Source of the DNA: a virus
DNA: 64,000 bases
Strand: one strand, 5' to 3'
IMG/VR virus record: IMGVR_UViG_3300037502_003029
Span: 1,052 to 65,051 of that record
Made by a program: the position numbers and the translations under genes
The notes under the pieces: model-generated
What the model was told of the DNA's origin: nothing
The model's database searches: none
Seen by the model: only the letters and a program-made list of their open reading frames with translations
Shown here: positions 15,707-61,941 of the stretch, in pieces
Position numbering within the stretch: the first letter of the stretch is position 1
Layout: the number at the start of each line of letters is the position of its first letter

Positions 15707-15778
15707 CGGGATATAAGAGAATCGAACTCTTATTACACGATAGACAGTCGTGGGTAATAACCATTATACCAATATCCC
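15707..15778 (-). tRNA. tRNA-Asp (anticodon GTC)
   Basis: Folded by hand: acceptor GGGATAT/ATATCCC, D-arm with GG, anticodon stem CACGA/TCGTG with loop CTGTCTA, T-arm AAGAG-TTCGATT-CTCTT. Confidence 0.75.
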
Positions 15779-34915: not shown

Positions 34916-34917
34916 CT

Positions 34918-37035: not shown

Positions 37036-37113
37036 GATAACAAATCGTTAAGTAATTCTGAATACTCTGCATTATTTGATACTAAAGCTACTCTTAAAAC
37101 TACTATAAACGGT

Positions 37114-45160: not shown

Positions 45161-45379
45161 TTGCTGGAAACCCCTAAAGATTTAACAACTACAAAGTAAT
45201 CTGTAAAGATAAGCTTGAATGTTAAAAAATAGTTAAATATGTATAATTATTAAACAATTAATTAAATAATTTGTTTAGTAATTATTAAATGGGCAATCAG
45301 CAGCGAAGATCCCTTATAGGGATAACGTTCAGAGACTATCTCCTTTGTAGGAGAGTACATTTAAAACTAATTACTTTAA

Positions 45380-46018
45380 ATGGAAACAGCAGATACTAAT
45401 AATTATTTTATTTATTGCTTAAAAGATCCTATTTCTTTAGAAATACGATATATAGGTTTTACTAGTAAAACTTTAAAATATAGATTATCAAAACATATTG
45501 ATAACGCAAAATATAATAAACACAATAAACATTTGTGTAATTGGATTTTGAAATATTTAAAGTTAGATTTAAAACCTATTATTGAACTAATAGAAATTTG
45601 TAATGAAGATAATTGGATAGAACGTGAAAAATATTGGATAAAATGTTATTCAAATCTATTAAATATTTCAGAAGGTGGAGATAAAAATATAATAAATCAC
45701 ACAGAAGAAACAAAACAATTATTAAGAATACAAAAATTAGGTAAAAAACCTAGTAAAGAAACTTTAGAAAAAAGAAGTAAATCTTTAAAAGGTAGAATTT
45801 TTTCAGAAGAGCATAAGAAAAAAATTTCTGAATCTAATAAAAAGAGATCTTTAGAAAAAAATAAAATAAAAGTTATTGATATAGTTAATAATATTGAAAC
45901 TATTTATTTAGGTAGACAGGCTGTAAAAGAAGCTTGTAATATAGGTTTAATGACTATATATAGAAATCTAAATAAAGATAAAATTATTAAAAATCAATAC
46001 AAATTAGTAAAGATATAG
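45380..46018 (+). CDS. GIY-YIG homing endonuclease with NUMOD-like C-terminal repeats
   Basis: YFIYCL...RYIGFTSKTLKYRLSKHI is a GIY-YIG module; repeated K.S..LKG / EEHKKKISESNKKR segments are NUMOD3-like. Confidence 0.65.
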   Translation: METADTNNYFIYCLKDPISLEIRYIGFTSKTLKYRLSKHIDNAKYNKHNKHLCNWILKYLKLDLKPIIELIEICNEDNWIEREKYWIKCYSNLLNISEGGDKNIINHTEETKQLLRIQKLGKKPSKETLEKRSKSLKGRIFSEEHKKKISESNKKRSLEKNKIKVIDIVNNIETIYLGRQAVKEACNIGLMTIYRNLNKDKIIKNQYKLVKI

Positions 46019-46341
46019 TCCAAACTATATAGAAATATATAGAGTATATACTGGGTTTAAGTAATTAATAAACTAATTAAACAGTATTTACAAAAAATGA
46101 GACAATTATTTAACTCCCGAAGGTTTAATGGATATTATTTTATACGCTACTTGTACAAAAGGAGCAAATGGAGTAATGGAATATCGTTTTGTAACTAATA
46201 ATGATGGTACGTTTCCAGCAAGAAGTCCAATAGGTATGTTTGAAGATATTACAATACCAAATGATTTTGGATATATTGTAGAAAAAATTGATGAATATTA
46301 TAATTAAAATTAATTAATAAGAAATAGTAAATAAATAAAGT

Positions 46342-46980
46342 ATGTTTGATTTTAGTAAAAAAAGTGAAGGTGGAAATCAAAAAGTAGATTTCCCATTAGG
46401 AATTGCAGTAGATAATGTAGTTTTAAGAAATATTGAAGTAAATCGTAATATCTTAGGATTACAATTTAATTTTCAAAGAGTGTTAAATGGTACTATAGCG
46501 TTTTTATCAGATACCTTATTACCACCTAAACAAGAGTGGTTTACAGAAGATAAACAAATAGGAGATAAACTTTTATCTGCTGAAGAGCAATATAATTTGC
46601 AAATACGTGTATTTTCAGGTTATGTAAGACATTTATTAACTAATTGTGGTTTAGATAATAATGATTTAGCAAAAGTACCACCTTCTGAAGATTTGAAGGA
46701 ATATTTAATAAAATTTTGTGAGATTATTAATCCTATTATTGAAAGAAAAAGAATACCTGTATACTTAAAAACAGTAGTTGATAAGCAAGGGTATATTAAA
46801 TTACCTAAATTTAGAGGCAAAGGTGTAGCATCTCCTATGGATGCTGGTAAACCAGCTTTTGAGTATAGTGAGTATGAATTAGAACTTATACAAGGTTCTA
46901 GAAAGGAAGGAGTAGAAGAAGTTACTCAAGCAGGAGATAATACTCCTAAAGCTACTACAGGTACAGGTATGGATTTTTAA
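46342..46980 (+). CDS. Hypothetical protein
   Basis: ORF track. Confidence 0.4.
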   Translation: MFDFSKKSEGGNQKVDFPLGIAVDNVVLRNIEVNRNILGLQFNFQRVLNGTIAFLSDTLLPPKQEWFTEDKQIGDKLLSAEEQYNLQIRVFSGYVRHLLTNCGLDNNDLAKVPPSEDLKEYLIKFCEIINPIIERKRIPVYLKTVVDKQGYIKLPKFRGKGVASPMDAGKPAFEYSEYELELIQGSRKEGVEEVTQAGDNTPKATTGTGMDF

Positions 46981-47004
46981 AATCTGTTATTAATTAATTT
47001 TAAT

Positions 47005-47038
47005 AAGCAGGGGGAGAAATCCTCCTGCTTTTTTTTTA
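47005..47038 (+). terminator. Terminator (AGCAGG...CCTGCT then T9)
   Basis: Seen in sequence. Confidence 0.5.
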
Positions 47039-47039
47039 T

Positions 47040-48008
47040 ATGATAGATATAAATGATTTTGAAGTAAATCTTAGCGATTTAAATGGTAAAGTATCTGATG
47101 AAGATATATATTATCATTATTTAGGAGATTTTGAAGATAATAGTTGGTTTTCTGCTCCTTGGAGAAGCGATACTGATCCTTCATTACGAATTTCTTATTA
47201 TAAAAACAGATGGGTATGGACTGATTTTGGAGAAGATAATAGACCTAAACATGCTATCAATTTTGTAATGCGTTTATACAATATAACGTATTTTGAAGCA
47301 TTAGAAAGAATTTATAAAGAAGTATATTTAAATAATGAACCTAATAACAAAAGTAAATCAGTAATTAAAACTGAATCAACATCTTATTGTAAGATAAGAC
47401 AAGAATTTTTTACTTTTGAGTTAGATTATTGGAAACCTGCGGATATAACTAAACAAGATTTACTGTATTGGGATATATATTCAGGAGAAATAAGACATAA
47501 TGGTAGAGTATGGCATCAATCTAAAGAATCTGATCCATTATTTATATATATGTTTGATAAAAAAATTCCAATATATAAAGGTTATAGACCATATGCTAAA
47601 GATAAACATTGTAAATTTTATGCTAAAAATGTATCAAATCATATACAAGGTTTAGATAAATTAACAGGTAAATCAAAAATATTAATCATAACTAAAAGTT
47701 ATAAAGATGTAATAGTTTGGAACAAATTAGGATATGATGCTATAGCTCCTCATACGGAAAATATGTTTATAAGTCCTTTTGATTTTTATGATTTACAATT
47801 AAAATATCCTATAATATATGTAAATTATGATAACGATGATGTAGGTGTAAAAAAGTCAATAGAATATACTAATATGTATGGTATTAATTACTTTAATATT
47901 CCTTTAAGTACATGCTGTAAAGATGTGTTTGAATTTGTATGTAATAACTCTTATAAGGAATTAGATGAATTATTTAAACAAAAATTAAAAAGAGATAATG
48001 TCTATTAA
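47040..48008 (+). CDS. Hypothetical protein; weak primase-like (TOPRIM-like) features
   Basis: Sits in the replication block after the DnaB-like helicase; no zinc-finger Cys seen; low confidence. Confidence 0.25.
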   Translation: MIDINDFEVNLSDLNGKVSDEDIYYHYLGDFEDNSWFSAPWRSDTDPSLRISYYKNRWVWTDFGEDNRPKHAINFVMRLYNITYFEALERIYKEVYLNNEPNNKSKSVIKTESTSYCKIRQEFFTFELDYWKPADITKQDLLYWDIYSGEIRHNGRVWHQSKESDPLFIYMFDKKIPIYKGYRPYAKDKHCKFYAKNVSNHIQGLDKLTGKSKILIITKSYKDVIVWNKLGYDAIAPHTENMFISPFDFYDLQLKYPIIYVNYDNDDVGVKKSIEYTNMYGINYFNIPLSTCCKDVFEFVCNNSYKELDELFKQKLKRDNVY

Positions 48009-48357
48009 ACTTACAGAAGAGCAAAAAGATAAGATTTTAGAAATGTGTAAAGTATTATTTCCTGAATATGATTTTGTATTTTACCATACAATATCTAAAG
48101 CAAATATGCTTACAGGATTTTTAAAAACAAATGATTCAGACCTTTATGATAATTGTGACATATTTATACATTGGTTTGAGTTTTGTATGACTCATTTAGC
48201 TGAAAAAATAGCTAAACATGATAGATATGATGATTTAAATCTACATGTTGATACTATACTAGCTTGTTGGGTAAACCATACAGAGAATTTTCCTAGAAAA
48301 CACCCAGTAGATTATTTATATGAAAAATTTAAAAGAATAAAAAATGAGAATACATGA
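47998..48357 (+). CDS. Hypothetical protein
   Basis: ORF track. Confidence 0.35.
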   Translation: MSIKLTEEQKDKILEMCKVLFPEYDFVFYHTISKANMLTGFLKTNDSDLYDNCDIFIHWFEFCMTHLAEKIAKHDRYDDLNLHVDTILACWVNHTENFPRKHPVDYLYEKFKRIKNENT

Positions 48358-48510
48358 GTCTATAACTTGTGATTTAAAATTAGTAGATGAAGAAGTTAAT
48401 AAATATTTAAGAGAATATCCTCCTGCAGGATACGGAACTCGTGAAACAAAGCGAGAAATTAACAATAATAAAGTAACAATAACATTTATAAGATCTAAAA
48501 GTTGTGATTA

Positions 48511-49458
48511 ATGAAAAATAAAGTAATTTTAACAGCTCAACATGGAAGACCTAGTACTAAGTTAGTTTGGTCTAAAGTGCAACACAATCGTGAAAACCCT
48601 ATTGTATTAGTACAACGAAGAAGATTTACTAAAAGAAATGGTAAAGTTGTATCTTATTATAGAGTGTTTGGAGATCCAAATGTATATAATGAAAAACAAC
48701 TATATCAGTTAAAAATGAAAACATTTAATTTTAATAATACTGTATTAATTAGATGGGGAACTAGAGAAGAGATTGAAGGTGAAAACTTAATAGTTTATAA
48801 TCAATCTAAATCTATTAAAAATGCTACTGATAAAAAATTAAGTAGAGAAATATTTGAGCAAAACAACGTATCTACTCCGAGATTATTAAAAAGTGTTAAT
48901 GATTGGAATAATGTTTGGGTAATTGCTAGACCTTCAGTACATTCTAAAGGTAAAAACTTTGTAATATTAAAAACAAAAGATGAGTTAAGACAACATTGGA
49001 GACAAGGTTGGTATTATAGCGAATTTATTAATAAACAAAGAGAATTTAGAGTACATGTAGGTCATTCTAAGGTATTAGCATTAATGGAAAAACATAATCC
49101 TAATAATGGTAATATTGCTTGGAATAGAGCAATAAATCAAAATGATCCTTTTACTTGGGTAGGCCAACAGCAAAGCGATAACGAAAATTTAAAACCTGTA
49201 TTAATAGAAGCCATTAAAGCAGTAAATGCTTTAGGTTTAGATATGGGAGGAGTAGATGTAATGTTACGAGATGGAGTAGCTTATGTTTTAGAAGTAAATA
49301 CTGCACCTACATTAAATACTTCACCTAAAGTTGCTAATATGTGGGCTAAATATTGGGAATTTTTATTAAGAAGAGACGATAGAAGATTGCATTGGAATTA
49401 TAAACAATTTACTAAGGCTAGTAGTTTATTTTGGAAACAAAATCAACTTGAAGAATGA
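48511..49458 (+). CDS. ATP-grasp fold ligase (RimK/glutathione-synthetase-like)
   Basis: WVIARPSVHSKGKNFVIL, EFRVHVG and GLDMGGVDVMLRDGVAYVLEVNTAPTL are typical ATP-grasp motifs. Confidence 0.55.
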   Translation: MKNKVILTAQHGRPSTKLVWSKVQHNRENPIVLVQRRRFTKRNGKVVSYYRVFGDPNVYNEKQLYQLKMKTFNFNNTVLIRWGTREEIEGENLIVYNQSKSIKNATDKKLSREIFEQNNVSTPRLLKSVNDWNNVWVIARPSVHSKGKNFVILKTKDELRQHWRQGWYYSEFINKQREFRVHVGHSKVLALMEKHNPNNGNIAWNRAINQNDPFTWVGQQQSDNENLKPVLIEAIKAVNALGLDMGGVDVMLRDGVAYVLEVNTAPTLNTSPKVANMWAKYWEFLLRRDDRRLHWNYKQFTKASSLFWKQNQLEE

Positions 49459-49823
49459 ATTTAATTGCAACACCTTTTGATGAATATTGTTTTTATAAAG
49501 TAGATAGTAAAGTATTTGTAGCATGGACAGGCGCATTTGGTAATTGCCAAAATATTACAATTAGATTTTGTAATTACTTGTTAACAGAATCATCTACTTA
49601 TATAAATAATTATTTTTTTGAATTATATAATAAAACAGGTAGACCTTATGTAATAATTGACATAAATTATATCTACTTTAACAAATTAACTGAATTTATG
49701 AAAGAAAACTCATTGAGTAAATTAAAAATAGTTTCACACCAACCTTATAAAAATGGTAATGGTTCTAATATGAACCTGATAGTTTTAGATATTAAAAATT
49801 TAAGAAAAATAACAAATGAATAA
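49455..49823 (+). CDS. Hypothetical protein
   Basis: ORF track. Confidence 0.35.
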   Translation: MNLIATPFDEYCFYKVDSKVFVAWTGAFGNCQNITIRFCNYLLTESSTYINNYFFELYNKTGRPYVIIDINYIYFNKLTEFMKENSLSKLKIVSHQPYKNGNGSNMNLIVLDIKNLRKITNE

Positions 49824-50661
49824 TTTTATACTTGGAGCAGATCCTGAATTTTTTGCTCGAAACGTAAAAACAGGTGAATATATTAGTTTAGTACCTTTTT
49901 TAAAGGGTACTAAAAGTAAACCAGAAGTATTAAAAATACCATTAGTAGATGGTTGTTTTAAATTAAAAGATAATGTTGCTGTAGAATTTAATATGCCTCC
50001 AGTACCTGAATACTGGATGCTAAAGATTTTAATTGATCAATGCATACAAGAAACTAACGATTGGTTAAAATCTATAGATCCTGATTTAGAGTTGGCTATA
50101 ACATCATCTGCTGAATTTGATGATAGAGAATTAAGCTCTGAAGAAGCAATGGAGTTTGGATGTGAACCTGCATATTCTGTATATTCTGAAGATGTAGTTT
50201 ATAGACCTTCTCCAGTAGAAGTAGGTAATTTAAGAACATCCTCATATCATATTCATTATGGATGGGATAAGAATTATAGTAGAGAAGATTTATTTAAATT
50301 TATAGTTTTAAACGATGTATTTTTAGGTTTTCCAGCTATTTTTAAAGATGAAACTGATAAATTACGAAAAGTAGTATATGGTAGTTTATCTGAACATAGA
50401 ATTAAAGCTAAAGAGCATTATTTTCATATCGAAGCTGCTAATAGAATAGAATATCGAAGCTTAGGTGCAGGTATACATAATCATCCTGAATTTGTAAATA
50501 ATGGTATAAATTTAATTAGAAAAAATACTCAAAATATAGATGATATCTATGATAGATATTTTGATGATTTATATTTATTAAACTATGATTTATATAACGA
50601 TAAATTAAAAACTAATTTAAAAAATAAATTAATAAAAAATGGACATTGGAACAACGCGTAA
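49816..50661 (+). CDS. Putative carboxylate-amine ligase (amidoligase/GCS2-like)
   Basis: N-terminal GADPEFF (GxExE-like) and HIHYG motif; lies within the ligation cassette. Confidence 0.35.
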   Translation: MNNFILGADPEFFARNVKTGEYISLVPFLKGTKSKPEVLKIPLVDGCFKLKDNVAVEFNMPPVPEYWMLKILIDQCIQETNDWLKSIDPDLELAITSSAEFDDRELSSEEAMEFGCEPAYSVYSEDVVYRPSPVEVGNLRTSSYHIHYGWDKNYSREDLFKFIVLNDVFLGFPAIFKDETDKLRKVVYGSLSEHRIKAKEHYFHIEAANRIEYRSLGAGIHNHPEFVNNGINLIRKNTQNIDDIYDRYFDDLYLLNYDLYNDKLKTNLKNKLIKNGHWNNA

Positions 50662-51007
50662 GTTAGCTGTTTATGGTACACTAAGAAACGGTTTTGGTAA
50701 TCACCGGTATTTAAAAAATTCAAAATTTATAGGAACAGGGAAAACTGTAGAAAGTTTTACACTAAGTGCAAATGGTATTCCATTTGTACATAAAGATCCT
50801 TTACATAATGTAGTAGTAGAAGTATATGAAGTAGATGATAATGATTTTAAAAATATAGATTCATTAGAAGGTCATCCTAACTGGTATAAAAGAGAAATAA
50901 CTGATATCCAAATAGGAAATCAGATAATACCAGCATGGTTATATTTTTATCCTAAAAAAGCAAATGAAATAATAGAATCAGGTGATTATAAAGATTATAA
51001 ATTATGA
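50639..51007 (+). CDS. Gamma-glutamyl cyclotransferase (GGCT/AIG2-like)
   Basis: LAVYGTLRNGFGNH (YGTL motif) and LEGHPNWYKRE (E..Y.R). Confidence 0.55.
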   Translation: MDIGTTRKLAVYGTLRNGFGNHRYLKNSKFIGTGKTVESFTLSANGIPFVHKDPLHNVVVEVYEVDDNDFKNIDSLEGHPNWYKREITDIQIGNQIIPAWLYFYPKKANEIIESGDYKDYKL

Positions 51008-51774
51008 TAGTAAGTTCTCAAAACTATGCTAAAATAAAACAAAATAGTGATGTTCGTCTATACACAAAATACGACTGTAACGGTTGGTATAAAAATTCTA
51101 GACATAAAGGTGAAGATCCTAAATTTTATGTAGATAAATCAATTGCCGATCAAACTTTAAACTTTTGGAATATTTCTTTAGAAAGATTTTTAGAAGAATT
51201 ATCTTTAATAGGTTTTACTTTTAGTGTAACTGTTTATAATCGTAAATTAAAATGGAAAAATAATAATGAGATGACTCCGCATTATGAGTTTAAATTATTA
51301 GTACCTAAAAAATACAAAGAGTCATCCTATTATAGATATTTAGGTTTTTGTTTATTTCGTCATTTATATTATTATCAAAATTATTTTAAAATATATTTTG
51401 ATTATATAGATAACAATACAACTGAACATACTAAAATTCTTGTATTAGGTTTGTTAAGAGGTATACCAACGCATACTTATTTGCAAGCTACACCAACAAA
51501 AGTTACTACGTTTGCAGAATTATTAGAAAAATTATTAAAAAATGGTAGTAATTATAGTGTAGATGGTAGTGATGCTTCTTTGCGTTTTAATTTTCTAGCG
51601 ATGAATAGTGCGTTAGTTAATAAAAAAATACTTAACGATGTACTATCTATAATTCATTTATCAAGAAATGAGTTGCTTAAATTAAATAACGATTTATTTA
51701 AAGTATCAACACCTATTTATGGAAATATTAATCAATTAAATTACAAAAAAATCCAAAACGCTTTAAGATTTTAA
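51004..51774 (+). CDS. Hypothetical protein
   Basis: ORF track. Confidence 0.35.
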   Translation: MIVSSQNYAKIKQNSDVRLYTKYDCNGWYKNSRHKGEDPKFYVDKSIADQTLNFWNISLERFLEELSLIGFTFSVTVYNRKLKWKNNNEMTPHYEFKLLVPKKYKESSYYRYLGFCLFRHLYYYQNYFKIYFDYIDNNTTEHTKILVLGLLRGIPTHTYLQATPTKVTTFAELLEKLLKNGSNYSVDGSDASLRFNFLAMNSALVNKKILNDVLSIIHLSRNELLKLNNDLFKVSTPIYGNINQLNYKKIQNALRF

Positions 51775-51775
51775 C

Positions 51776-53251
51776 ATGTGCGGACTTGCTGGTTTTTATC
51801 CCAAAAAAGGAAAAATGGCAAATATAGATTTTATATTTGCAATGGGAATTATGAATGAAAATAGAGGTACTGATTCTTGTGGAATTAGTATAGGAGATTA
51901 TGTAGAAAAAGGTATAGCTAAAGAATCAGATGCTAGAACTTTTATTGAGATTAATAAAAAAAAAATCACAAATAGATTAACATCAGAACCTATAATATTT
52001 CATACAAGAAAAAGTACTTACGGTACTCATACTTATGATAATGCACACCCTTTTCATTGGTATATGCCAAATGATAAAAAGAATTATTTCGTATTTGCAC
52101 ATAATGGTACTTTAGACGCTTGGAGAAATATGATTGATAGTTGGAATATTCAAGGAGATTCAAAACTAGCAACTATAGATTCTCACGCCTTAGGTTTAGC
52201 AATGTTTAAAGCTATAAGAAACGGACAAGATTTTGATCGCATATTAACCAAATATAAAGGTGCTGCTGCATTTTTAGGTTATACTGGTGATACATTTTTT
52301 GTATGGAAAGGTGCTAGTAATAACATTGTAGAAAGACCGATGTATTATATAGAAAATGCTGATGGTTGGTATTTTCATTCTCAAGAAATAGTACTAAGTT
52401 TATTATTTCCTAATAAACATGTTTATGAAGTAGATAATAATACTCTAATAACGTTTAAAAATAATAAACTATTTAGCAAAACTGAATATAAAAGAGAATT
52501 TAAAACTATAGCAGAAACTGCTCATACAGCATCGCAAAACGTTAAAGAGTTATTTAAAAAGATTAATCCATTACATATGTTAATCTTAAATTCTAAAACG
52601 TTAATTAAAAGAAAAGCTAATAAATTCGATAAATATGAATCTAAAAAAAGTAGAAAACATAAAGCAAAATATCAAACAGATAGTCAAATGATGATACCAT
52701 TTGATGTTGATAATACTGAAGAAGAAGAAGATCTTTTATTAGATTTTAATTTTCCATATTCTTGTGGTGTAAATGCAAATATAAACTCTTATAATTATGC
52801 AAAATATACATCGTCTAAAGGAGCTATTTTAAATGGTACATACTATTTTAAACTTAGTAAAATAAATGATGATTTTATTATTGAAAATAAATATTCACAT
52901 AATCCACCTGATAATGGTTATATACCTATAATATTTATCAATGGAATTGCCTTCTATAATATAACAAATTCTTTAAAAATATCTGATACTATTTCGGTAC
53001 TTACTGAAAAAATTGAATCTTGTACAAACATTCAACAATTAAATGAATTAGTAGATAAAGAATATAGATCTAGTATATTTAAAAATTTAGCAAGTTATAT
53101 GCATGTATATAATGATATATTAGGTAAACATGTTGTCATATATAAATCAGTTAATGGCTTGGTTTATGCAGAAGTAACAGAAGATGTACCAACATTGATT
53201 ACTTTTTATGAAGAGGTTGTAGGAGTAAAAACATTTAAAGCGCTTGTATGA
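51776..53251 (+). CDS. Class-II glutamine amidotransferase (Ntn) domain protein
   Basis: N-terminus MCGLAG (catalytic Cys2), as in GlmS/AsnB-type GATases. Confidence 0.5.
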   Translation: MCGLAGFYPKKGKMANIDFIFAMGIMNENRGTDSCGISIGDYVEKGIAKESDARTFIEINKKKITNRLTSEPIIFHTRKSTYGTHTYDNAHPFHWYMPNDKKNYFVFAHNGTLDAWRNMIDSWNIQGDSKLATIDSHALGLAMFKAIRNGQDFDRILTKYKGAAAFLGYTGDTFFVWKGASNNIVERPMYYIENADGWYFHSQEIVLSLLFPNKHVYEVDNNTLITFKNNKLFSKTEYKREFKTIAETAHTASQNVKELFKKINPLHMLILNSKTLIKRKANKFDKYESKKSRKHKAKYQTDSQMMIPFDVDNTEEEEDLLLDFNFPYSCGVNANINSYNYAKYTSSKGAILNGTYYFKLSKINDDFIIENKYSHNPPDNGYIPIIFINGIAFYNITNSLKISDTISVLTEKIESCTNIQQLNELVDKEYRSSIFKNLASYMHVYNDILGKHVVIYKSVNGLVYAEVTEDVPTLITFYEEVVGVKTFKALV

Positions 53252-55212
53252 AAAAGATATTAAAAAAAAAGATAAGAAACCGATGGTATCCTATGTCAGA
53301 GGTAGTTATTGATACATATACTAATGAGTATGAAGTAAAAAAGAAAACTAAAGCTTATTTAGGTTTAGACAATACTATACAATTTAGTAGTAAAGTAGTT
53401 GATTATTATAATATTAAAAATCGTAATTATCAATCTATATGTCTTTCGATTATTGAAAAAAATATAGATTCTTTTATTTTCTATAAAAATGCATATTATC
53501 ATTTAACAGCTACCAATAACTTTCCCAAATATAAAAAACCTAATAATAAAATATATGAAATTCGTAGTTATCCGTTTATTGTAAATGAACCTATAGTTAA
53601 TATTCCAAATAAATTATCAAATATATTAAAGAATACAACTATTGGAATTGAGTTAGAAACTTCTAGTAGCGTAATACCAAAAATAGAAGCAGAAAAGTTA
53701 CATTTTGCTGAATTATATGATGGATCAATTAAAGGTCCTGAGTATACTTCTAAAGTCTTTACAGCTAATAATTTACATTATGTATATAAGATGTTAACAT
53801 TGTTAAAATGTATGACAACTTCTGATGAATATTGTTCTCTTCATATACATTTTGGTAACATTCCTTTTAGTGATGATAATTTATTAGCTATTTATAACTT
53901 ATACCAAAGATTACAAGATGAGTTAAATTTTATAATTGCGCCCTTTAGAAAAGATTATAGGTATTTAGCAAGCAAAGATAAAGATCATTGCAAAAATCTT
54001 CCTAAGTTATTAAATAATACTTCTAAAGAGATTTATCAATTATTAAAATTAGATAATTTATCACAAGAAGACTTACGACAATATAAAGATAGAAATAATA
54101 AATGGAATATTTTAGGAAGATATTATAATATCAATTTTATTAATTTTATTTGTAATAACTCTAATAGTAAAACTATTGAAGTAAGACCTTTACAAATGAC
54201 TACTAATTTTGATTATTTTATAACATTTTTACTTGTTAATTATTATATAATTAATTATGCTACAAATCATGTATCAGTAATAAATAATAAAGAAAAAAAG
54301 ATAGAATTATCTGATGTAATTTCATATCATAAAGATGAAATATCATCTACAGTATACAAAAACATTGTAATTATAAAAGATTTTTTCTATAACTTATTTC
54401 ATATAAAAAATTTAGATATAAGAAATATAGCAAAAATTGATTTAGATTTAGCTAAAAATATAATACCATATAATTTATTTCCTGATACTATAAATTTTGA
54501 TATATATAATAAATTAGTATCATTAGATTATAATGTATATATTAAATATTTAGCAGAAAATAATTTAATTAGTGACCATATCGAGTTAATAGAAAAAAGT
54601 AAATATTTTAATAAATCTATAAAATATGATAAAACAACTAGTTTTTTTGATTATTTGTATAAAACTGACGAGAGCGATGATATTAAACAAAAGCTTTTAA
54701 GTTCATTTATTATTAATTCTATAGTACATTATAATAGTCATATAAGAAATGATTATTATAGAAATGAGCAAGAATCTCTTTATGATTTAAATACTAACAA
54801 TTATGACTCAGGATCTTCTACATCTTCTGCTTATGTAACTTTTAATCATTTTGATGGTGATGAACAAAAATTATCAGCTAAACTTGATAAATCATCTTTT
54901 TTAAAATTAAAAATGAACTTAGATTCTGTATACTTAGATATGGAAAATATGTTTTTAAAAAATGATGATGTTGGTAGCATAGCAGTACTAGAAAATGGTA
55001 TAATAATTAAAAGAGAATTTTCTGATATATTTACTGCTATATTAGATGATACTTGTTTTTATTTACCTATAACTAAAAATATGGTTAATAGATATTTTAC
55101 TTTAAATCCTAATTTATCTATACCTGAAAAATATAAAAAACTTATTACTGAAAAACATTTTAATAAATCTTATACTGTTTTTAATCTCAGAGATGTTGAA
55201 GAAGAAGAATGA
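53248..55212 (+). CDS. Amidoligase-family domain protein (654 aa)
   Basis: GIELETSS (GiElE), ELYDGSI, SLHIHFGN. Confidence 0.45.
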   Translation: MKKILKKKIRNRWYPMSEVVIDTYTNEYEVKKKTKAYLGLDNTIQFSSKVVDYYNIKNRNYQSICLSIIEKNIDSFIFYKNAYYHLTATNNFPKYKKPNNKIYEIRSYPFIVNEPIVNIPNKLSNILKNTTIGIELETSSSVIPKIEAEKLHFAELYDGSIKGPEYTSKVFTANNLHYVYKMLTLLKCMTTSDEYCSLHIHFGNIPFSDDNLLAIYNLYQRLQDELNFIIAPFRKDYRYLASKDKDHCKNLPKLLNNTSKEIYQLLKLDNLSQEDLRQYKDRNNKWNILGRYYNINFINFICNNSNSKTIEVRPLQMTTNFDYFITFLLVNYYIINYATNHVSVINNKEKKIELSDVISYHKDEISSTVYKNIVIIKDFFYNLFHIKNLDIRNIAKIDLDLAKNIIPYNLFPDTINFDIYNKLVSLDYNVYIKYLAENNLISDHIELIEKSKYFNKSIKYDKTTSFFDYLYKTDESDDIKQKLLSSFIINSIVHYNSHIRNDYYRNEQESLYDLNTNNYDSGSSTSSAYVTFNHFDGDEQKLSAKLDKSSFLKLKMNLDSVYLDMENMFLKNDDVGSIAVLENGIIIKREFSDIFTAILDDTCFYLPITKNMVNRYFTLNPNLSIPEKYKKLITEKHFNKSYTVFNLRDVEEEE

Positions 55213-55838
55213 AATTTGAAAAGATATTTAAAAAGTATAATACAAGTTTAGTATTAATTTTACCTATATTTAAAAAAATTATCCAACACGTAAAAAATAG
55301 ATATAATCAAAACTATTCTATTCAAGGATTATTTTGTCAATATGGTTTGATTAATACTTACTTGTATAATACTAACGGGTTTAATGGTACTTTAAAATTA
55401 TTATTTGATTCTAATAAATTACTAGATTGTAAATTAAAAGCTCAAGTTCAACAACCTATTAATAATTTATTAGATTTAATAATAAATTCTGAATATTTTT
55501 ATTCTATCGTTTATAGGGAAAAACATATATTAATTGAATTAAAAATTCCTGAAGAATTTTTAAACGATATTAAGTTAATTGAAAATTCTCAGTATTCAAA
55601 AGTATCTGATAAATATAAAGAATATATTAAATATGTAGGTAGTTATATCTTAACAGAAGATGATGTTTTAAATTATTTATATATTGAAAACATACCATCT
55701 AAAATAATAGAAAAGAAAAAAAGTTTAGAAGATATAATTAGGAAAACTTTTGGTTTAGATACAAGCATATCTTCAGAAGAGCTTGAAGAGTATTATTCAC
55801 AATTTAATAAAAAAAAAGAAACATATTCTAATGAATAA
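55209..55838 (+). CDS. Hypothetical protein
   Basis: ORF track. Confidence 0.35.
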   Translation: MKFEKIFKKYNTSLVLILPIFKKIIQHVKNRYNQNYSIQGLFCQYGLINTYLYNTNGFNGTLKLLFDSNKLLDCKLKAQVQQPINNLLDLIINSEYFYSIVYREKHILIELKIPEEFLNDIKLIENSQYSKVSDKYKEYIKYVGSYILTEDDVLNYLYIENIPSKIIEKKKSLEDIIRKTFGLDTSISSEELEEYYSQFNKKKETYSNE

Positions 55839-56337
55839 ATTATATGACCTTTTAGAAAGTTTTAGAAAACAACATTTATCTGCTTCGGATAGAAAATCTT
55901 CTTCTGCTATTATATTTGTTAAATTTTTATCTTTATATTCAGATGTTTATTCAAAATATAATGATGAAAATGTAAAAGATACAAAAGAATTTATTGAAAA
56001 AGTAGAGCATCTTATAGTATGGACGTTATTATTAAAGCATTCTACAATAAAAGATTTAGTTTATGTAGAAGGTGATTTTACAGAATCTTCATATGCTACT
56101 AATCAAGTGTTTTCGTTATCGAACGTTGCTGAGACTATATATACATATTTAAATACCAATATTGATACTCTTCCTTATAATAGTATTTGGAATTTTAGAG
56201 TATTTGTTAATACAGTACTTAACGATTCTATTGATATGTTAAATTATGCAGTAGATAAAAAACTTTTAATACCTTTTTTTATAGATCTTTTTGAATTATA
56301 TATGGATGACAAAAAAATTATCGAATCAAGAATTTAA
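55831..56337 (+). CDS. Hypothetical protein (start moved to the ATGA-coupled Met; the ORF track begins at 55783)
   Basis: ORF track plus overlap logic. Confidence 0.35.
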   Translation: MNKLYDLLESFRKQHLSASDRKSSSAIIFVKFLSLYSDVYSKYNDENVKDTKEFIEKVEHLIVWTLLLKHSTIKDLVYVEGDFTESSYATNQVFSLSNVAETIYTYLNTNIDTLPYNSIWNFRVFVNTVLNDSIDMLNYAVDKKLLIPFFIDLFELYMDDKKIIESRI

Positions 56338-56749
56338 TGAATTATTACTTTTACATACGGATTATGTAAAGAATATTCGATCATATGCAATAAAGATACA
56401 GTTATCTAATACTAAAGACGTAGATATATTAACAGATAATTTTAACTCAATAACTGAAAAATTAACATTAAATATTTTAAAGTTTTGCAACATTTTAGAT
56501 TTAAGACCTGTAGAAGTTTTTAATCTTAAATCAAAAGATGAAAAAATGTATGATTATTTAATAATTAGTACTTTTATATTAAACTTAAAAGAAGATTTAA
56601 ACGTAGGAGAAAATAAAAAAACATTATTTACTAAAGTATTTAATAGTTTATTTAAGTTATTGCAAACTAATAACCCAAACCTAGATTTATATGATATTAT
56701 GCTTAAACAAATAGAAAATAAAAAATATTATGGATTTAAAAAAATATGA
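56291..56749 (+). CDS. Hypothetical protein (start uncertain, possibly 56306)
   Basis: ORF track. Confidence 0.3.
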   Translation: MNYIWMTKKLSNQEFNELLLLHTDYVKNIRSYAIKIQLSNTKDVDILTDNFNSITEKLTLNILKFCNILDLRPVEVFNLKSKDEKMYDYLIISTFILNLKEDLNVGENKKTLFTKVFNSLFKLLQTNNPNLDLYDIMLKQIENKKYYGFKKI

Positions 56750-57227
56750 AACAATAATAGCTCAAACAGCAGTATATCCTAGAACAGTAGAAAACTTTGA
56801 TGTTGCTTACTGTTATTTAGGAATAATAGATGAAACATTTGAATTATTTGAAAAAATAGAAAATAATGCTTCTGATATTGAAATAAAAAAAGAAATAGGT
56901 GACGTAATATGGTATCTTACAGCTTTTGCTGTATTTTATAAAATACCATTAGAAACCGTATTTATAACACTTTTAAACCCGGATTATGAAGAGGATATGT
57001 TTTTATTTTATCGTTTTGCAGGTAAAGTTAAAAAGTTTTATAGAGATAATAAAGAAATTCCTAAAGAAGAAGTATCTAGATTTATAACTATTGTTTGGAA
57101 TAGATTACTCCAATATACTTCTCAAGAAGATATTGGTAGCATTCTTCAAATGAATTACGATAAATTAATTAAAAGGAGAGAAACCGATACTTTACACGGA
57201 GATGGTGATAATCGAGAAATACAATAA
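56730..57227 (+). CDS. MazG-like nucleoside triphosphate pyrophosphohydrolase
   Basis: EIGDVIWYL (E.GD.LWYL) is typical of all-alpha NTP-PPases. Confidence 0.55.
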   Translation: MDLKKYETIIAQTAVYPRTVENFDVAYCYLGIIDETFELFEKIENNASDIEIKKEIGDVIWYLTAFAVFYKIPLETVFITLLNPDYEEDMFLFYRFAGKVKKFYRDNKEIPKEEVSRFITIVWNRLLQYTSQEDIGSILQMNYDKLIKRRETDTLHGDGDNREIQ

Positions 57228-57229
57228 TT

Positions 57230-58030
57230 ATGGAACATAAAGGATTAAGATATAATAAAGGTAAACTAAGATATGATTTAGTTCATCCTGATGCTCATCA
57301 AGAAATGGTTAAAGTATTAACTATGGGAGCAGAAAAATATGCAGAACGCAATTGGGAAAAAGGTATGAAGTGGAGTAATATAATTGCTTCACTTAAACGT
57401 CATATTGCAGCTATTGAGATGGGTGAAGATTATGATGCAGAATCTGGGTTATTGCATGCTGCTCATGTGGCGTGTAATGCTCATTTTCTTACTGCGTATT
57501 ATAAAATATACCCACAAGGTGATGATAGACCTCATTCATATTTAAACTCTTTAAAAATAGGATTAGACATAGATGGTGTACTTGCTGATTTTGACTTACA
57601 TTTATGTAATACTGTAGGTATAGATTTGCATAATATTACACATTGGAATGATCCTATTATTAAAAAACATTATGAAGCAATAAAACATGATGAAAACTTT
57701 TGGTTAACTATGCCTACGCTTATTAAACCAGAAGATATTCCTTTTGAACCTCACGTTTATATAACTAGTAGAAGTATAGATAGTAAGATAACAAAAAAAT
57801 GGTTACATGATAATGGATTTCCTGATGCTCCTGTGCATAGTATAGGTACTAATGAATCTAAGGTAGATACTGCTATAAAATCAAATATTGATATATTTAT
57901 AGATGATAAATGGCAGAATTTTATAGAATTAAATGCATCAGGTATATGTACATTTTTAATGGATGCTCCTCATAATAGAAAATATAACGTAGGTTATAAA
58001 AGAATTTTTAATTTTGATAATTTTAAATAA
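57230..58030 (+). CDS. Fusion: N-terminal dATP/dGTP-pyrophosphohydrolase-like domain + C-terminal HAD 5'(3')-deoxyribonucleotidase
   Basis: GAEKYAERNW...DAESGLLHAAHVACNAHFL N-domain; LDIDGVLADFD (DxDGVLxDF) HAD motif I and IFIDD C-terminal motif. Confidence 0.5.
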   Translation: MEHKGLRYNKGKLRYDLVHPDAHQEMVKVLTMGAEKYAERNWEKGMKWSNIIASLKRHIAAIEMGEDYDAESGLLHAAHVACNAHFLTAYYKIYPQGDDRPHSYLNSLKIGLDIDGVLADFDLHLCNTVGIDLHNITHWNDPIIKKHYEAIKHDENFWLTMPTLIKPEDIPFEPHVYITSRSIDSKITKKWLHDNGFPDAPVHSIGTNESKVDTAIKSNIDIFIDDKWQNFIELNASGICTFLMDAPHNRKYNVGYKRIFNFDNFK

Positions 58031-58033
58031 GAT

Positions 58034-59140
58034 ATGATTAAAGCAGAAGTAGTAGCTGATAGTTTATCACCACAAGGTGATAGACTTATTAGCTTATTGG
58101 TTACATTCCCTAGAATTATTCTTGCTGAAGTTAATACACATCGTATGCTTTCTAAGAATACATCTAGTAGTAGAGCTATACCATTTAATAAAATGGTAGA
58201 ATCTGTGCAAAATGATCCTTTTATACCTATTGCTTGGCAAAAAGAACATAAAGGAATGCAAGGTAGTGAGTATATTAATGATGAAAACGATATTTGGTTA
58301 GCAAAAGCCAATTGGTTAAGAGCAAGAGATTATGCTATTGATTATGCTAAACATAATAATGAGCAGGTTGGAGTAACCAAACAACTATGCAATAGACTTC
58401 TTGAACCTTTTATGTGGACTACTATGTTAATTACAGGTAGTAGAGAAGGTTGGGATAATTTTTTTAAATTAAGATGTCCTCAATATCATTTTCCAGTAGA
58501 TACACATTTTCGCTATAAAAGTAAAAAAGACTGTATTGCTGCTCATAGTAACCCTATTAATTTAGAAATATTTGAAAAGTTTTCAACAGTAGATTGGTTA
58601 AAAATTAATGAAGGTCAAGCCGAAATTCACATGATGGCTTTAGCTGAATCTATTTGGGATTCAGTTAATGAAAGTAAACCCAAACAATTACAAACTGGTG
58701 AATGGCATATACCTTTTGAGAATAAGATAAATTTACAAGATTGGTATAATAATAATAAAAGACCTACAGTAGCTTTTTGGAATGAGTTAGAAGGGTATGA
58801 AATGGATAAATATAAAGTTAAAGTATCTACAGCTATGGCTGCTCATACTTCTTATACAGTAGTAAGTAATGAAGCTGTTAAAGATTATTCTAGATGGGTA
58901 GAGTTACATGACAAATTAATAGCTTATGATCCACCTCATAGTAGTCCACTAGAACATTGCGCTAAGGTTATGGGTTATAATGAATATTATGATTATTTAA
59001 AAACTAATGGTGAAGTAATTGATTATACTCTTGATGGAGATAATATATATTCAGAGAGAAGTTTTGGTTGGTGTGGACCTTATAAAGGATTTATGTCTTA
59101 TAGATATTTTATTGATAATAAAATAAATGCTTTTAATTAA
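58034..59140 (+). CDS. thyX: Flavin-dependent thymidylate synthase (ThyX-like), unusually long at 368 aa
   Basis: ThyX signature NTHRMLSKNTSSSRA (RHR...S...S.R). Confidence 0.5.
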   Translation: MIKAEVVADSLSPQGDRLISLLVTFPRIILAEVNTHRMLSKNTSSSRAIPFNKMVESVQNDPFIPIAWQKEHKGMQGSEYINDENDIWLAKANWLRARDYAIDYAKHNNEQVGVTKQLCNRLLEPFMWTTMLITGSREGWDNFFKLRCPQYHFPVDTHFRYKSKKDCIAAHSNPINLEIFEKFSTVDWLKINEGQAEIHMMALAESIWDSVNESKPKQLQTGEWHIPFENKINLQDWYNNNKRPTVAFWNELEGYEMDKYKVKVSTAMAAHTSYTVVSNEAVKDYSRWVELHDKLIAYDPPHSSPLEHCAKVMGYNEYYDYLKTNGEVIDYTLDGDNIYSERSFGWCGPYKGFMSYRYFIDNKINAFN

Positions 59141-61906: not shown

Positions 61907-61930
61907 GAGGGGTTTTCCCTCCATTTTTTT
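61906..61930 (+). terminator. Terminator (GGAGGG-TTTT-CCCTCC then T7)
   Basis: Seen in sequence. Confidence 0.5.
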
Positions 61931-61941
61931 AATTTAAAAAC

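What the first reader, a model, noticed from the sequence alone, without database searches (positions are those of the whole stretch)
48511..55212. ATP-grasp + amidoligase (x2) + class-II glutamine amidotransferase + GGCT/AIG2 cassette
Six co-oriented, tightly packed genes encode an ATP-grasp ligase, two amidoligase-like carboxylate-amine ligases (GxExE/HIH motifs), a GATase-II with an N-terminal Cys and a gamma-glutamyl cyclotransferase-like protein. Comparative-genomics literature has proposed this domain combination as a system that synthesises and removes gamma-glutamyl or other peptide tags or small metabolites. Its substrate in phage infection is unknown.
Basis: partly seen in the sequence, partly recalled or inferred. 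Interest (0 to 1): 0.65.

Follow-up and report, generated by a model that had tools for sequence, protein, structure and literature searches.

The report
Phage amide-ligase gene cassette, function unknown
This is a divergent copy, in an uncultured crAss-like phage, of a gene cassette already annotated in many phages; it encodes three amide-bond-forming enzymes and two glutamine/gamma-glutamyl-cleaving enzymes, its enzyme types are clear, and nobody has yet identified its substrate.

Summary
The interval 48511-55212 contains seven overlapping same-strand genes, not six. Five have the proposed enzyme domains:
- a RimK-like ATP-grasp ligase;
- a phiEco32-type COOH-NH2 ligase;
- a GGACT/AIG2 cyclotransferase;
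- a class-II glutamine amidotransferase domain with an N-terminal Cys and no synthetase domain;
- a divergent Amidoligase_2 with a glutamine-synthetase fold.

The ATP-grasp is not a standard D-Ala-D-Ala ligase and the amidotransferase is not AsnB.

One of the two extra genes (O5) is a free-standing copy of a domain that relatives fuse to the N-terminus of this ATP-grasp.

The cassette is the crAss-type version of the phage "amidoligase module" predicted by Iyer et al. (2009). It is already annotated in Cellulophaga phage phi14:2, crAss phage cr108_1, LUZ24/PaP3-like phages and others.

Across 86 related loci:
- the order COOH-NH2 ligase, then amidotransferase, then amidoligase is nearly invariant;
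- ATP-grasp and GGCT are accessory;
- every complete locus has a Peptidase_C26 gene, a GGCT gene, or both. This window has only GGCT.

No experimental function turned up in the searchable literature. It most likely makes and trims glutamate/glutamine-based amide bonds on a cytoplasmic acceptor. This is a new member of a known kind, of moderate interest.

The parts
47005..47030 (+). Terminator-like hairpin (11-bp stem, T-run) just upstream of the primase gene. It marks the probable start of the transcription unit that contains the cassette.
   Evidence: the strongest terminator-like site in 46000-58500. No comparable site lies inside 48-56 kb.
47040..48511 (+). Context: DNA primase (47040-48008) and two small overlapping ORFs (47998-48357, 48344-48511) that run directly into O1.
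   Evidence: Primase PHROG 12622, 4.4e-18; ORF coordinates. In phi14:2, cr108_1 and most crAss-like loci the cassette also follows the primase.
48511..49458 (+). O1: ATP-grasp amino-acid ligase, closest to the RimK / MptN / CofF alpha-L-glutamate ligases.
   Evidence: Pfam RimK 1.1e-5, ATP-grasp_3 2.2e-5. PHROG 2599 1e-29. NCBIfam MptN 4.7e-11 and rimK_fam 1.2e-9, all far below the equivalog cut-offs. The family profile hits PurD-like, cyanophycin synthase, Ddl, RimK and LysX structures. Invariant K108, E178, R180, H182, K194, D249, E261, N263.
49455..49823 (+). O2: small protein of unknown function, specific to this lineage.
   Evidence: No Pfam or PHROG hit. The only homologue is at the same position in L004 (phmmer 2.4e-10 in the locus set; gene order).
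49816..50661 (+). O3: phiEco32-type COOH-NH2 (carboxylate-amine) ligase, type 2.
   Evidence: PHROG 3815 8.4e-30. tblastn finds 129 phage records. 11 of 15 aligned members hit PF14395. Invariant G7, D9, E11, D52, E57, R140, H145, H147, R184, R195, E212, R214.
50639..51007 (+). O4: gamma-glutamyl(amine) cyclotransferase, AIG2/GGACT family.
   Evidence: PF06094 3.9e-25, 89 bits against a cut-off of 22.8. PHROG 2520 3.5e-30. PDB sequence matches to PH0828 (2e-10), YtfP and human GGACT 3jub. The YGTLR (12-16) and L-E77-G motifs can be read directly from the sequence.
51004..51774 (+). O5: free-standing copy of a domain that relatives fuse to the N-terminus of the cassette's ATP-grasp ligase. Motifs: N-T-x-N-F/Y, G-C-N, R-Y-Y-A-F-C-x-x-R-H-x-Y-Y-Y-Q.
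   Evidence: No Pfam or PHROG hit. The exhaustive search finds 8 hits besides O5's own entry, 7 of them genuine relatives. Five of those are 551-610 aa long, with the O5-like domain at residues ~40-200 and an O1-type ATP-grasp at the C-terminus (O1 HMM E 1e-75 to 1e-86). The L007 611-aa protein has the same fusion.
51776..52510 (+). O6 N-terminal domain (aa 1-245): class-II (Ntn) glutamine amidotransferase / gamma-glutamyl amidohydrolase domain, with Cys2 as nucleophile.
52514..53251 (+). O6 linker (aa 247-323, predicted disordered) and a small beta-rich C-terminal domain (aa ~325-470) found only in this phage family. It is not an asparagine-synthetase, SIS or PRTase domain.
53248..53604 (+). 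O7 N-terminal beta-rich domain (aa ~1-90) plus linker. Present only in the window's clade of long O7 proteins.
   Evidence: AF2 pLDDT ~90 for residues 10-50 and 64-90 beyond, with nine short strands. Aligned among P0002-P0014. Most other loci match O7 only from residue ~119-131 onward.
53605..54567 (+). O7 catalytic domain (aa ~120-440): divergent Amidoligase_2, glutamine-synthetase / glutamate-cysteine-ligase fold.
54568..55212 (+). O7 C-terminal extension (aa 441-654): poorly modelled, variable, and ending in an acidic tail (..RDVEEEE).
   Evidence: pLDDT mostly <60. The tails are EEEE / DEEE / FDEEE / DEDDE only in a few of the closest relatives.
55209..55838 (+). O8: conserved Crassvirales protein of unknown function that follows O7. 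Probably a syntenic neighbour rather than a cassette member.
   Evidence: Found in 25 of 86 loci. In phi14:2 the homologue is g047, 3 kb downstream and separated from the cassette by UDG, RusA and an exonuclease. No Pfam, PHROG or NCBIfam hit of note.

Best explanation
This is the crAss-type version of the phage-specific 'amidoligase module'. I read it as a cytoplasmic pathway, co-transcribed with the replication genes, that forms and trims glutamate/glutamine-based amide bonds on one acceptor molecule.

Shown:
- Three ATP-dependent carboxylate-amine ligases are present with their conserved motif residues intact: O1 (ATP-grasp), O3 (PF14395 type) and O7 (Amidoligase_2, GS fold).
- Two enzymes that recognise a glutamine or gamma-glutamyl group are present: O6 (class-II Ntn domain) and O4 (GGACT).
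- The order O3, O6, O7 is conserved in 84-86 of 86 related loci.

Inferred:
1. O6 and O7, always adjacent, act as a split glutamine-dependent amidoligase. O7 would activate a carboxylate as an acyl-phosphate, as glutamine synthetase does. O6 would supply ammonia from glutamine. Alternatively O6 acts like EgtC or Dug3 and hydrolyses a gamma-glutamyl amide.
2. O3 forms a second amide, probably a gamma-glutamyl-amine bond. In most relatives it is paired in the same way with a Peptidase_C26 / class-I amidotransferase gene that this phage lacks.
3. O1, helped by the detached O5 domain, adds an amino acid, most likely glutamate.
4. O4 removes a gamma-glutamyl group from an amine as 5-oxoproline. That makes it a deprotection or recycling step.

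The acceptor is unknown. My ranking is: a small peptide or amine metabolite, including the murein precursor peptide proposed in 2009 (most likely); then a protein; then DNA.
For: - Domain and catalytic-residue evidence.
- Conserved order: O3 in 84, O6 in 85 and O7 in 86 of 86 loci, always in that order.
- A Peptidase_C26-type gene (Pfam 3.1e-14) lies next to O3 in 79 of 86 loci.
- Among 78 complete loci none lacks both C26 and GGCT. The four that lack C26 all carry GGCT, as does the window.
- GGCT occurs with the ATP-grasp in 24 of 25 complete loci (Fisher p 4e-4, not corrected for phylogeny).
- The O5 domain is fused to the ATP-grasp in five database proteins and in L007.
- Operon structure: overlapping ORFs and a terminator only upstream of the primase.
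- Restricted to phages: only 2 hits, both on short MAG contigs, among one genome for each of 185,579 species.
- The same module is annotated in phi14:2, cr108_1, PaP3-like phages and Cronobacter phage A24.
Against: - No substrate, product or phenotype is known for any member.
- The O6-O7 complex and ammonia channelling are inferred from adjacency alone.
- The sequence cannot tell a glutaminase from a gamma-glutamyl amidohydrolase, because both use the same residues.
- In PaP3-like phages the amidoligase precedes the amidotransferase, and their amidoligase is not detected by the O7 HMM. The module is therefore heterogeneous.
- O3 and O7 themselves fall below Pfam thresholds.
- O2, the O6 C-terminal domain and the O7 N- and C-terminal regions are unexplained.
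Confidence: 0.55

Rival explanations
1. Peptidoglycan-precursor modification, as proposed by Iyer et al. 2009. The ligases would add amide or peptide linkages to the free carboxylates of the cytoplasmic murein stem peptide (D-iGlu alpha-COOH, mDAP COOH, terminal D-Ala). This would change cross-linking or hydrolase sensitivity, for superinfection exclusion or lysis timing. It is a target-specific version of the main explanation.
For: - It is the only published proposal, and it is repeated for this gene set in PMC11945000 and PMC10580990.
- Three ligases would match three free carboxylates.
- From my own knowledge, known murein amidation uses the same logic of an amidotransferase plus a ligase: GatD/MurT (class I) and AsnB/LtsA (class II). 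That parallels the C26+O3 and O6+O7 pairs.
- The ATP-grasp profile also hits D-Ala-D-Ala ligases.
- Isolated carriers infect bacteria that have murein.
Against: - There is no experimental support.
- No Mur-ligase, transpeptidase or lipid-II-related gene occurs among the conserved neighbours, which are replication and nucleotide-metabolism genes.
- Amidoligase and GATase genes are reported in a virus assigned computationally to murein-less Poseidoniales archaea.
- A GGACT acts on L-gamma-glutamyl amines, not on the D-iGlu linkage of murein (own knowledge).
Confidence: 0.2
2. Protein tagging. The ATP-grasp and GS-fold ligases would add glutamate or another residue to a host or phage protein, as RimK does on S6, LysX on LysW and PafA with Pup. 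O6 and O4 would act as erasers.
For: - O1's nearest named relatives are RimK-family ligases.
- The O7 fold matches PafA and Dop.
- O7 and a few close relatives end in EEEE/DEEE, resembling RimK and LysX acceptor tails.
- O5 could be a target-recognition domain.
- PMC4431377 proposes host-protein modification for a different phage ATP-grasp clade, R2K.2.
Against: - The acidic tail is limited to a handful of relatives.
- The ATP-grasp is absent from 23 of 78 complete loci, so it is not core.
- No carrier protein of the Pup or LysW type is conserved in the loci.
- GGACT and C26 enzymes typically act on small gamma-glutamyl compounds (own knowledge).
Confidence: 0.1
3. DNA or nucleotide hypermodification, or counter-defence. 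The ligases would amidate or extend an amino-acid-bearing base, or consume a nucleotide-derived immune signal.
For: - The cassette sits inside the replication and nucleotide-metabolism block here and in unrelated phage groups. It is next to the primase or primase-helicase in crAss-like and PaP3-like phages.
- Lee et al. (PMC8989533) report Pfam amidoligase and amidotransferase genes of unknown function beside 5-HMUDK and aGPT-Pplase2 thymidine-hypermodification genes in viral contigs.
- Its patchy distribution across unrelated phage groups is what one expects of an arms-race module.
Against: - PHROG scans of 49 window ORFs found no hydroxymethylase, 5-HMUDK, aGPT-Pplase, glycosyltransferase or base-flipping enzyme.
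- A ThyX thymidylate synthase is present.
- None of the abundant neighbour clusters in the 86 loci that I scanned or recognised is a DNA-modifying enzyme; only a subset of the clusters was checked.
- No nucleic-acid-binding domain was detected in any cassette protein.
Confidence: 0.08
4. Nutrient or redox salvage. The cassette would break down or rebuild host gamma-glutamyl compounds (glutathione-like thiols, gamma-glutamyl polyamines) to free glutamate, amines or nitrogen for phage production. This would be a gamma-glutamyl-cycle or Puu-like auxiliary metabolic pathway.
For: - The enzyme set mirrors the gamma-glutamyl cycle: a GCL-fold ligase, an ATP-grasp synthetase, an Ntn hydrolase and GGCT.
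- It also mirrors PuuA (GS-like) plus PuuD (Peptidase_C26).
- An M42 glutamyl aminopeptidase gene adjoins the cassette on contigs that are mostly 100-350 kb long, probably jumbo phages.
Against: - Three ATP-consuming ligases are not needed for catabolism.
- No oxidase, dehydrogenase or 5-oxoprolinase accompanies the cassette.
- The proteins are far from the housekeeping enzymes, with bit scores well below every equivalog cut-off.
Confidence: 0.07

Closest known systems
Phage 'amidoligase / peptidoglycan-modification module' (Iyer, Abhiman, Burroughs & Aravind 2009), as annotated in Cellulophaga phage phi14:2 (g037-g041), crAss phage cr108_1 (gp028-gp034), PaP3/LUZ24-like Bruynoghevirus, phiEco32-like phages and Cronobacter phage A24
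   Same: It has the same five enzyme families, the same position beside the primase, and the same O3, O6, O7 order as phi14:2 and cr108_1. HMMs built from the crAss-type set recognise the PaP3 and A24 ATP-grasp, COOH-NH2 ligase, GGCT (PaP3 only; none was detected in the A24 locus) and amidotransferase. The terminase places the phage nearest phi14:2 in Crassvirales (34.5% identity).
   Different: - Only 23-36% protein identity to any GenBank phage and no nucleotide match.
- It lacks the Peptidase_C26 gene present in 79 of 86 loci.
- The O5 domain is detached from the ATP-grasp.
- It has an extra small gene, O2.
- O7 is enlarged to 654 aa, with an N-terminal beta domain and an acidic tail.
Ergothioneine EgtA/EgtC and glutathione Dug3 logic: a GCL-type ligase adds a gamma-glutamyl group and a stand-alone class-II amidotransferase-like Ntn hydrolase removes it
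   Different: No EgtB, EgtD or EgtE-type genes are present. O6 carries an extra C-terminal domain. Sequence identity is only 11-17%. The roles of EgtC and Dug3 are stated from my own knowledge.
Gamma-glutamyl-amine pathways: PuuA/PuuD (putrescine), GmaS (methylamine), NpaA1 (1-naphthylamine), PA5508
   Same: These GS-fold ligases gamma-glutamylate amines and are among the best structural matches of O7 (4hpp, 8wwu, 9qur). The PuuD-type Peptidase_C26 is the partner gene in most related loci.
   Different: The window lacks the C26 gene. No oxidase or dehydrogenase steps are present. Sequence identity is 8-13%.
Butirosin BtrJ (ATP-grasp) and BtrG (GGCT-like): gamma-glutamyl protection and deprotection (own knowledge)
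   Same: It shows the same pairing of an ATP-grasp ligase with an AIG2/GGCT-family enzyme. Here GGCT co-occurs with the ATP-grasp in 24 of 25 complete loci.
   Different: There is no acyl-carrier protein and no aminoglycoside genes. Homology to BtrJ and BtrG was not tested.
RimK-family alpha-L-glutamate ligases (RimK, MptN, CofF, LysX)
   Same: These are the best named matches of O1.
   Different: O1 scores 42 bits against cut-offs of 143-350, so it is not a member of any of these equivalogs. It works with a phage-specific accessory domain, O5.

Membership tests
Phage amidoligase module (phiEco32 / LUZ24 / crAss type) | PF14395-type COOH-NH2 ligase | tested here: met
   PHROG 3815 8.4e-30. 11 of 15 aligned family members hit PF14395, although the window protein itself does not at E<=0.01. 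Conserved D/E, HxH and ExR residues.
Phage amidoligase module (phiEco32 / LUZ24 / crAss type) | Amidoligase_2 (PF12224) ligase with GS-like fold | tested here: met
Phage amidoligase module (phiEco32 / LUZ24 / crAss type) | Class-II amidotransferase (Ntn) protein with N-terminal Cys and no fused synthetase domain | tested here: met
Phage amidoligase module (phiEco32 / LUZ24 / crAss type) | ATP-grasp ligase in the same gene string | tested here: met
   Present in 55 of 78 complete related loci.
Phage amidoligase module (phiEco32 / LUZ24 / crAss type) | A gamma-glutamyl-cleaving partner: AIG2/GGCT and/or a GATase-like thiol peptidase (Peptidase_C26) | tested here: met
   GGACT 3.9e-25. The C26 HMM finds nothing in the six-frame window. 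Every complete locus has at least one of the two.
Phage amidoligase module (phiEco32 / LUZ24 / crAss type) | Encoded in a phage genome, in the early/replication gene block | tested here: met
   Terminase, portal and major head protein at 6.8-14.5 kb. TerL is nearest phi14:2. DnaB, Sak4 and primase lie upstream; MazG and ThyX lie downstream.
D-alanine--D-alanine ligase (Ddl) | Score at or above the NCBIfam/Pfam cut-off for Ddl models | tested here: not met
   PRK01372 21.4 bits against 243; TIGR01205 20.4 against 245.65. Dala_Dala_lig_C 19 bits against 24.
RimK-family alpha-L-glutamate ligases (RimK, MptN, CofF, LysX) | Score at or above the family or equivalog cut-off | tested here: not met
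   These are the best hits but far below cut-off: MptN 42.3 against 350; rimK_fam 37.9 against 143.4. The Pfam RimK domain model is passed (25.6 against 21). O1 therefore has a RimK-like ATP-grasp domain but is not an orthologue.
Asparagine synthetase B (AsnB) | C-terminal Asn_synthase (PP-loop ATPase) domain after the class-II GATase domain | tested here: not met
GGACT / AIG2-like gamma-glutamyl cyclotransferases (PF06094) | Pfam gathering score; YGTLR substrate pocket; catalytic Glu | tested here: met
   89.2 bits against 22.8. YGTLR at residues 12-16 and L-E77-G are read from the sequence. Equating E77 with the catalytic Glu of human GGACT is an inference.
Thymidine hypermodification clusters (5-HMUDK + aGPT-Pplase; PMC8989533) | dU/dC hydroxymethylase, 5-HMUDK kinase and aGPT-Pplase genes near the amidoligase and amidotransferase genes | tested here: inconclusive
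   None was reported among the 49 window ORFs scanned with PHROGs, nor among the neighbour clusters I checked. No dedicated models for these enzymes were run, and small ORFs were not scanned.
Split glutamine-dependent amidoligase (glutaminase subunit plus ligase subunit) | Physical complex and ammonia transfer between O6 and O7 | not testable with these tools
   Only adjacency is shown (85 of 86 loci). No O6-O7 fusion was seen by reading the 12 longest O6 homologues; no O7 profile was run on them.

The most novel reading that the evidence does not exclude
The cassette is not a cell-wall or housekeeping pathway. Instead it is a phage counter-defence or genome-protection device. Expressed with the replisome, it would make a so-far undescribed glutamyl or carboxamide adduct on DNA, on a nucleotide, or on a host immune or replication protein. 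The O5 domain and the family-specific O6 and O7 end domains would select the target.
Probability: 0.12. Interest if true: 0.8.

Novelty: new member of a known kind. Interest (0 to 1): 0.35.

Why it matters
This module occurs in well over a hundred sequenced phages, including crAss-like gut and marine phages, therapeutic Pseudomonas phages and probable jumbo phages. It has had no experimentally known function since it was predicted in 2009.

This window does not solve that problem, but the comparison of 86 loci sharpens it:
- The invariant core is COOH-NH2 ligase + class-II amidotransferase + Amidoligase_2, usually with a Peptidase_C26 gene.
- ATP-grasp and GGCT form an accessory pair.
- C26 and GGCT appear able to substitute for each other.
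- A previously unnamed domain (O5) belongs to the ATP-grasp.

These rules indicate which genes to reconstitute together and which deletions to compare. Cultured carriers such as phi14:2 and LUZ24/PaP3 are better experimental systems than this uncultured phage.

Tried and rejected
- **Nucleotide search.** A search of the cassette against 50,697 phage records found no match.
- **O5 homologues.** The word-indexed search found only O5 itself, and tblastn against phages found nothing. Only the exhaustive phmmer search found relatives.
- **Profile drift.** My first iterative O5 profile drifted into ATP-grasp proteins through the L007 fusion. I re-read that result as evidence of a domain fusion, not of homology.
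- **O5 versus c5.** I asked whether O5 equals 'c5', a ~263-aa unknown gene that follows the ATP-grasp in 40 loci. hhalign gave E 0.024 and probability 2%, and the c5 HMM finds nothing in the window. This is unresolved. The c5 cluster also turned out to be contaminated with C26 sequence.
- **O8 as a cassette member or UDG.** Rejected. The phi14:2 homologue is g047, 3 kb away, not the adjacent UDG.
- **Acidic O7 tail as a general ATP-grasp acceptor.** Rejected as general, because only a few close relatives have it.
- **O3 related to O7.** Profile comparison aligns only the HxH segment (E 0.009). They are at best distant members of one superfamily.
- **O6-O7 fusion proteins.** None was seen by reading the 12 longest O6 homologues; no O7 profile was run on them.
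- **Cellular homologues.** The pattern scan of one genome for each of 185,579 species gave only 2 short MAG contigs that carry the same phage-type string.
- **Sigma-70 promoter scan.** Fewer sites than in shuffled sequence, so it is uninformative for a probable Bacteroidota phage.
- **Rfam.** Nothing inside the cassette.
- **Iyer et al. 2009.** The paper could not be read. Its content is cited second-hand.
- **Structure prediction of O5 and O2.** Not attempted. Only single sequences were admissible, and the two available jobs went to O7 and O6.

Full report
**What is in the interval.** Seven ORFs on the + strand fill 48511-55212 with no non-coding space:
- O1: 48511-49458 (315 aa)
- O2: 49455-49823 (122 aa)
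- O3: 49816-50661 (281 aa)
- O4: 50639-51007 (122 aa)
- O5: 51004-51774 (256 aa)
- O6: 51776-53251 (491 aa)
- O7: 53248-55212 (654 aa)

Neighbours overlap by 4-23 nt or are 1 nt apart. The string continues upstream, without a break, through two small ORFs to the primase gene at 47040. A strong terminator-like hairpin sits at 47005-47030, and none of comparable quality lies inside the cassette. With 25% G+C, about one codon in ten would be a stop by chance. Frames of 256-654 codons are therefore not chance.

**Domain assignments.**
- *O1* is an ATP-grasp protein. Pfam RimK (1.1e-5) and ATP-grasp_3 (2.2e-5) both pass their cut-offs, and PHROG 2599 scores 1e-29. Its nearest named relatives are the RimK-family alpha-L-glutamate ligases (MptN 4.7e-11, rimK_fam 1.2e-9). 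These scores are far below the family cut-offs, and the D-Ala-D-Ala ligase models score even lower (21 bits against 243).
- *O3* matches PHROG 3815 'COOH.NH2 ligase' at 8.4e-30. It falls below Pfam's reach on its own. In an alignment with 14 relatives, 11 hit PF14395, the phiEco32-like COOH-NH2 ligase type 2. The D/E, H145-x-H147 and E212-x-R214 residues are invariant.
- *O4* is a clear GGACT/AIG2 protein (3.9e-25).

**The two unassigned genes.**
- *O2* has a single homologue, at the same position in the closest long contig (L004).
- *O5* looked like an orphan until every representative protein was scored. Five of its seven genuine relatives are 551-610 aa long. They carry the O5-like domain at the N-terminus and an O1-type ATP-grasp at the C-terminus (E 1e-75 to 1e-86 with the O1 profile). 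The L007 protein has the same fusion. O5 is therefore a detached accessory domain of the cassette's ATP-grasp ligase and probably contributes to substrate choice. Its fold is unknown.

**The genome it comes from.** The minus-strand half of the window encodes the terminase, portal and major head protein. The terminase is most similar to that of Cellulophaga phage phi14:2, followed by crAss-like Bacteroides and Flavobacterium phages. Upstream of the cassette lie a DNA polymerase, helicases, Sak4 and the primase. Downstream lie MazG, a dATP/dGTP pyrophosphohydrolase fusion, ThyX and an RNA-repair-like set. An identical O7 protein is recorded on a 72,953-bp JGI contig. The window is thus from an uncultured, distant member of Crassvirales.

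**Relation to what is known.**
- phi14:2 carries primase, GGCT, ATP-grasp, COOH.NH2 ligase, amidotransferase and 'amidoligase enzyme' in a row.
- crAss phage cr108_1 carries a similar string.
- The window proteins match these at 23-36% identity.
- PaP3/LUZ24-like Pseudomonas phages and Cronobacter phage A24 carry the same families beside their primase-helicase.
- The COOH-NH2 ligase alone is found in 129 phage records.
- Papers on these phages call the set a putative 'peptidoglycan modification module', citing Iyer et al. 2009. I could not read that paper.
- Nine full-text searches produced no experimental work on the module.

**Comparison of 86 loci.** Eighty IMG/VR loci and six others containing an O7 relative were clustered.
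- O3, O6 and O7 are present in 84, 85 and 86 loci, always in that order.
- A ~212-aa Peptidase_C26 / class-I amidotransferase gene (Pfam 3.1e-14) lies next to O3 in 79 loci. It is absent from the whole window.
- The ATP-grasp is present in 55 of 78 complete loci and GGCT in 25.
- GGCT is accompanied by the ATP-grasp in 24 of those 25.
- No complete locus lacks both C26 and GGCT.
- Large contigs, mostly 100-350 kb and probably jumbo phages, carry only the C26-O3-O6-O7 core, next to an M42 glutamyl aminopeptidase.
- The O7 clade is essentially confined to phages: one genome for each of 185,579 prokaryotic species yielded two short MAG contigs with the same string.

**Mechanism.**

*Shown:* three intact ATP-dependent carboxylate-amine ligases, two enzymes that recognise a glutamine or gamma-glutamyl group, fixed gene order, and co-transcription with replication genes.

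*Inferred:*
1. O6 and O7, always adjacent, form a split glutamine-dependent amidoligase. O7 would make an acyl-phosphate as glutamine synthetase does, and O6 would deliver ammonia. Alternatively O6 works like EgtC, removing a gamma-glutamyl group.
2. O3 makes a second amide. In most relatives it is paired with the C26 enzyme.
3. O1 plus O5 adds an amino acid, probably glutamate.
4. O4 releases an amine by cyclising a gamma-glutamyl group to 5-oxoproline. This resembles the ATP-grasp/GGCT protection-deprotection pair in butirosin biosynthesis (own knowledge).

The recurring theme is glutamate and gamma-glutamyl chemistry. It runs through the RimK-like ligase, the GS/GCL-fold ligases, the C26 peptidase, GGCT, the class-II amidotransferase and the M42 glutamyl aminopeptidase neighbour.

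**The acceptor.**
- The murein precursor peptide remains the only published candidate. It fits the 'amidotransferase plus ligase' logic of GatD/MurT and AsnB/LtsA (own knowledge). No cell-wall gene is ever linked to the module, however, and amidoligase and amidotransferase genes are reported in a virus assigned to murein-less archaea.
- A DNA target is suggested by the location and by amidoligase and amidotransferase genes beside thymidine-hypermodification genes in other contigs. This window, though, has ThyX and no detectable hydroxymethylase, kinase or transferase.
- A protein target is suggested by the RimK, PafA and Dop similarities and by the EEEE tail of O7. That tail is limited to a few relatives.

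I cannot decide among these with sequence data.

**Verdict.** The object is a divergent new member of a known, computationally predicted but functionally uncharacterised phage module. Its lineage-specific features are loss of the C26 gene, a detached ATP-grasp accessory domain, an extra small gene and an enlarged amidoligase. It is worth noting, but it is not the best system in which to solve the open question.

Noticed in passing
window 44648-46307: The Sak4-like annealing protein gene appears split. A 170-aa N-terminal part lies at 44648-45160 and a 59-aa C-terminal part at 46128-46307, with a GIY-YIG homing endonuclease ORF (45380-46018) between them. Sub-threshold Rfam group I intron matches flank the endonuclease: 45151-45394 (26.5 bits) and 46008-46040 (26.2 bits).
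   Followed up: partly
window 34891-37869: The DNA polymerase gene is in two pieces. One is 34891-36063 (PHROG 1252 positions 51-412) and the other is 37114-37869 (positions 435-656). A LAGLIDADG homing endonuclease ORF (36324-36926) separates them. There is a weak group I intron hit at 36205-36283 (19 bits, E 0.039).
   Followed up: partly
window 59147-63164; L004, L006: An RNA-repair-like gene set lies downstream of the cassette: a RlaP-type nucleotidyltransferase, an RNA ligase, a polynucleotide kinase and a metallophosphoesterase. Close relatives also encode a Thg1-like protein and a peptide deformylase.
   Followed up: no
window 57230-58030: This 266-aa protein fuses a dATP/dGTP pyrophosphohydrolase-like N-terminal domain (PHROG 801, 9.5e-40; PF18909 in relatives) to a nucleotidase/PNK-like C-terminal domain. 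It lies next to MazG and a long (368 aa) ThyX.
   Followed up: no
window 55191-55212 (O7 C-terminus): O7 ends in ..RDVEEEE. A few of its closest relatives end in DEEE, FDEEE or DEDDE. This resembles the acidic acceptor tails of RimK and LysX substrates, but it is not conserved across the family.
   Followed up: partly
proteins P0065, P0066, P0068-P0070, P0073, P0074 (O6 homologues): Several homologues of the amidotransferase have a 25-35-residue hydrophobic stretch before the catalytic Cys. This could be a propeptide removed by autoprocessing, as in some PurF enzymes, or a mis-called start.
   Followed up: no
loci L012-L028, L085 (IMG/VR contigs, mostly 100-350 kb): Large contigs that are probably jumbo phages carry a reduced cassette of c5, Peptidase_C26, O3, O6 and O7, with no ATP-grasp or GGCT. 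Next to it lie an M42 glutamyl aminopeptidase on the opposite strand and a 355-aa Met/Gly-rich protein.
   Followed up: partly
L001 6445-8358; cluster c5 in 40 loci: One or two ~260-330-aa proteins of unknown function lie between the ATP-grasp and the C26 gene in many loci. They share a helix motif ([I/F]R-x-[L/M]-x-E-x-P) that loosely resembles the O5 motif RYYAFCxxRHxYY. Profile comparison was inconclusive.
   Followed up: partly
window 15707-15778 (-), 25644-25726 (+), 30506-30578 (+): Three tRNA genes.
   Followed up: no
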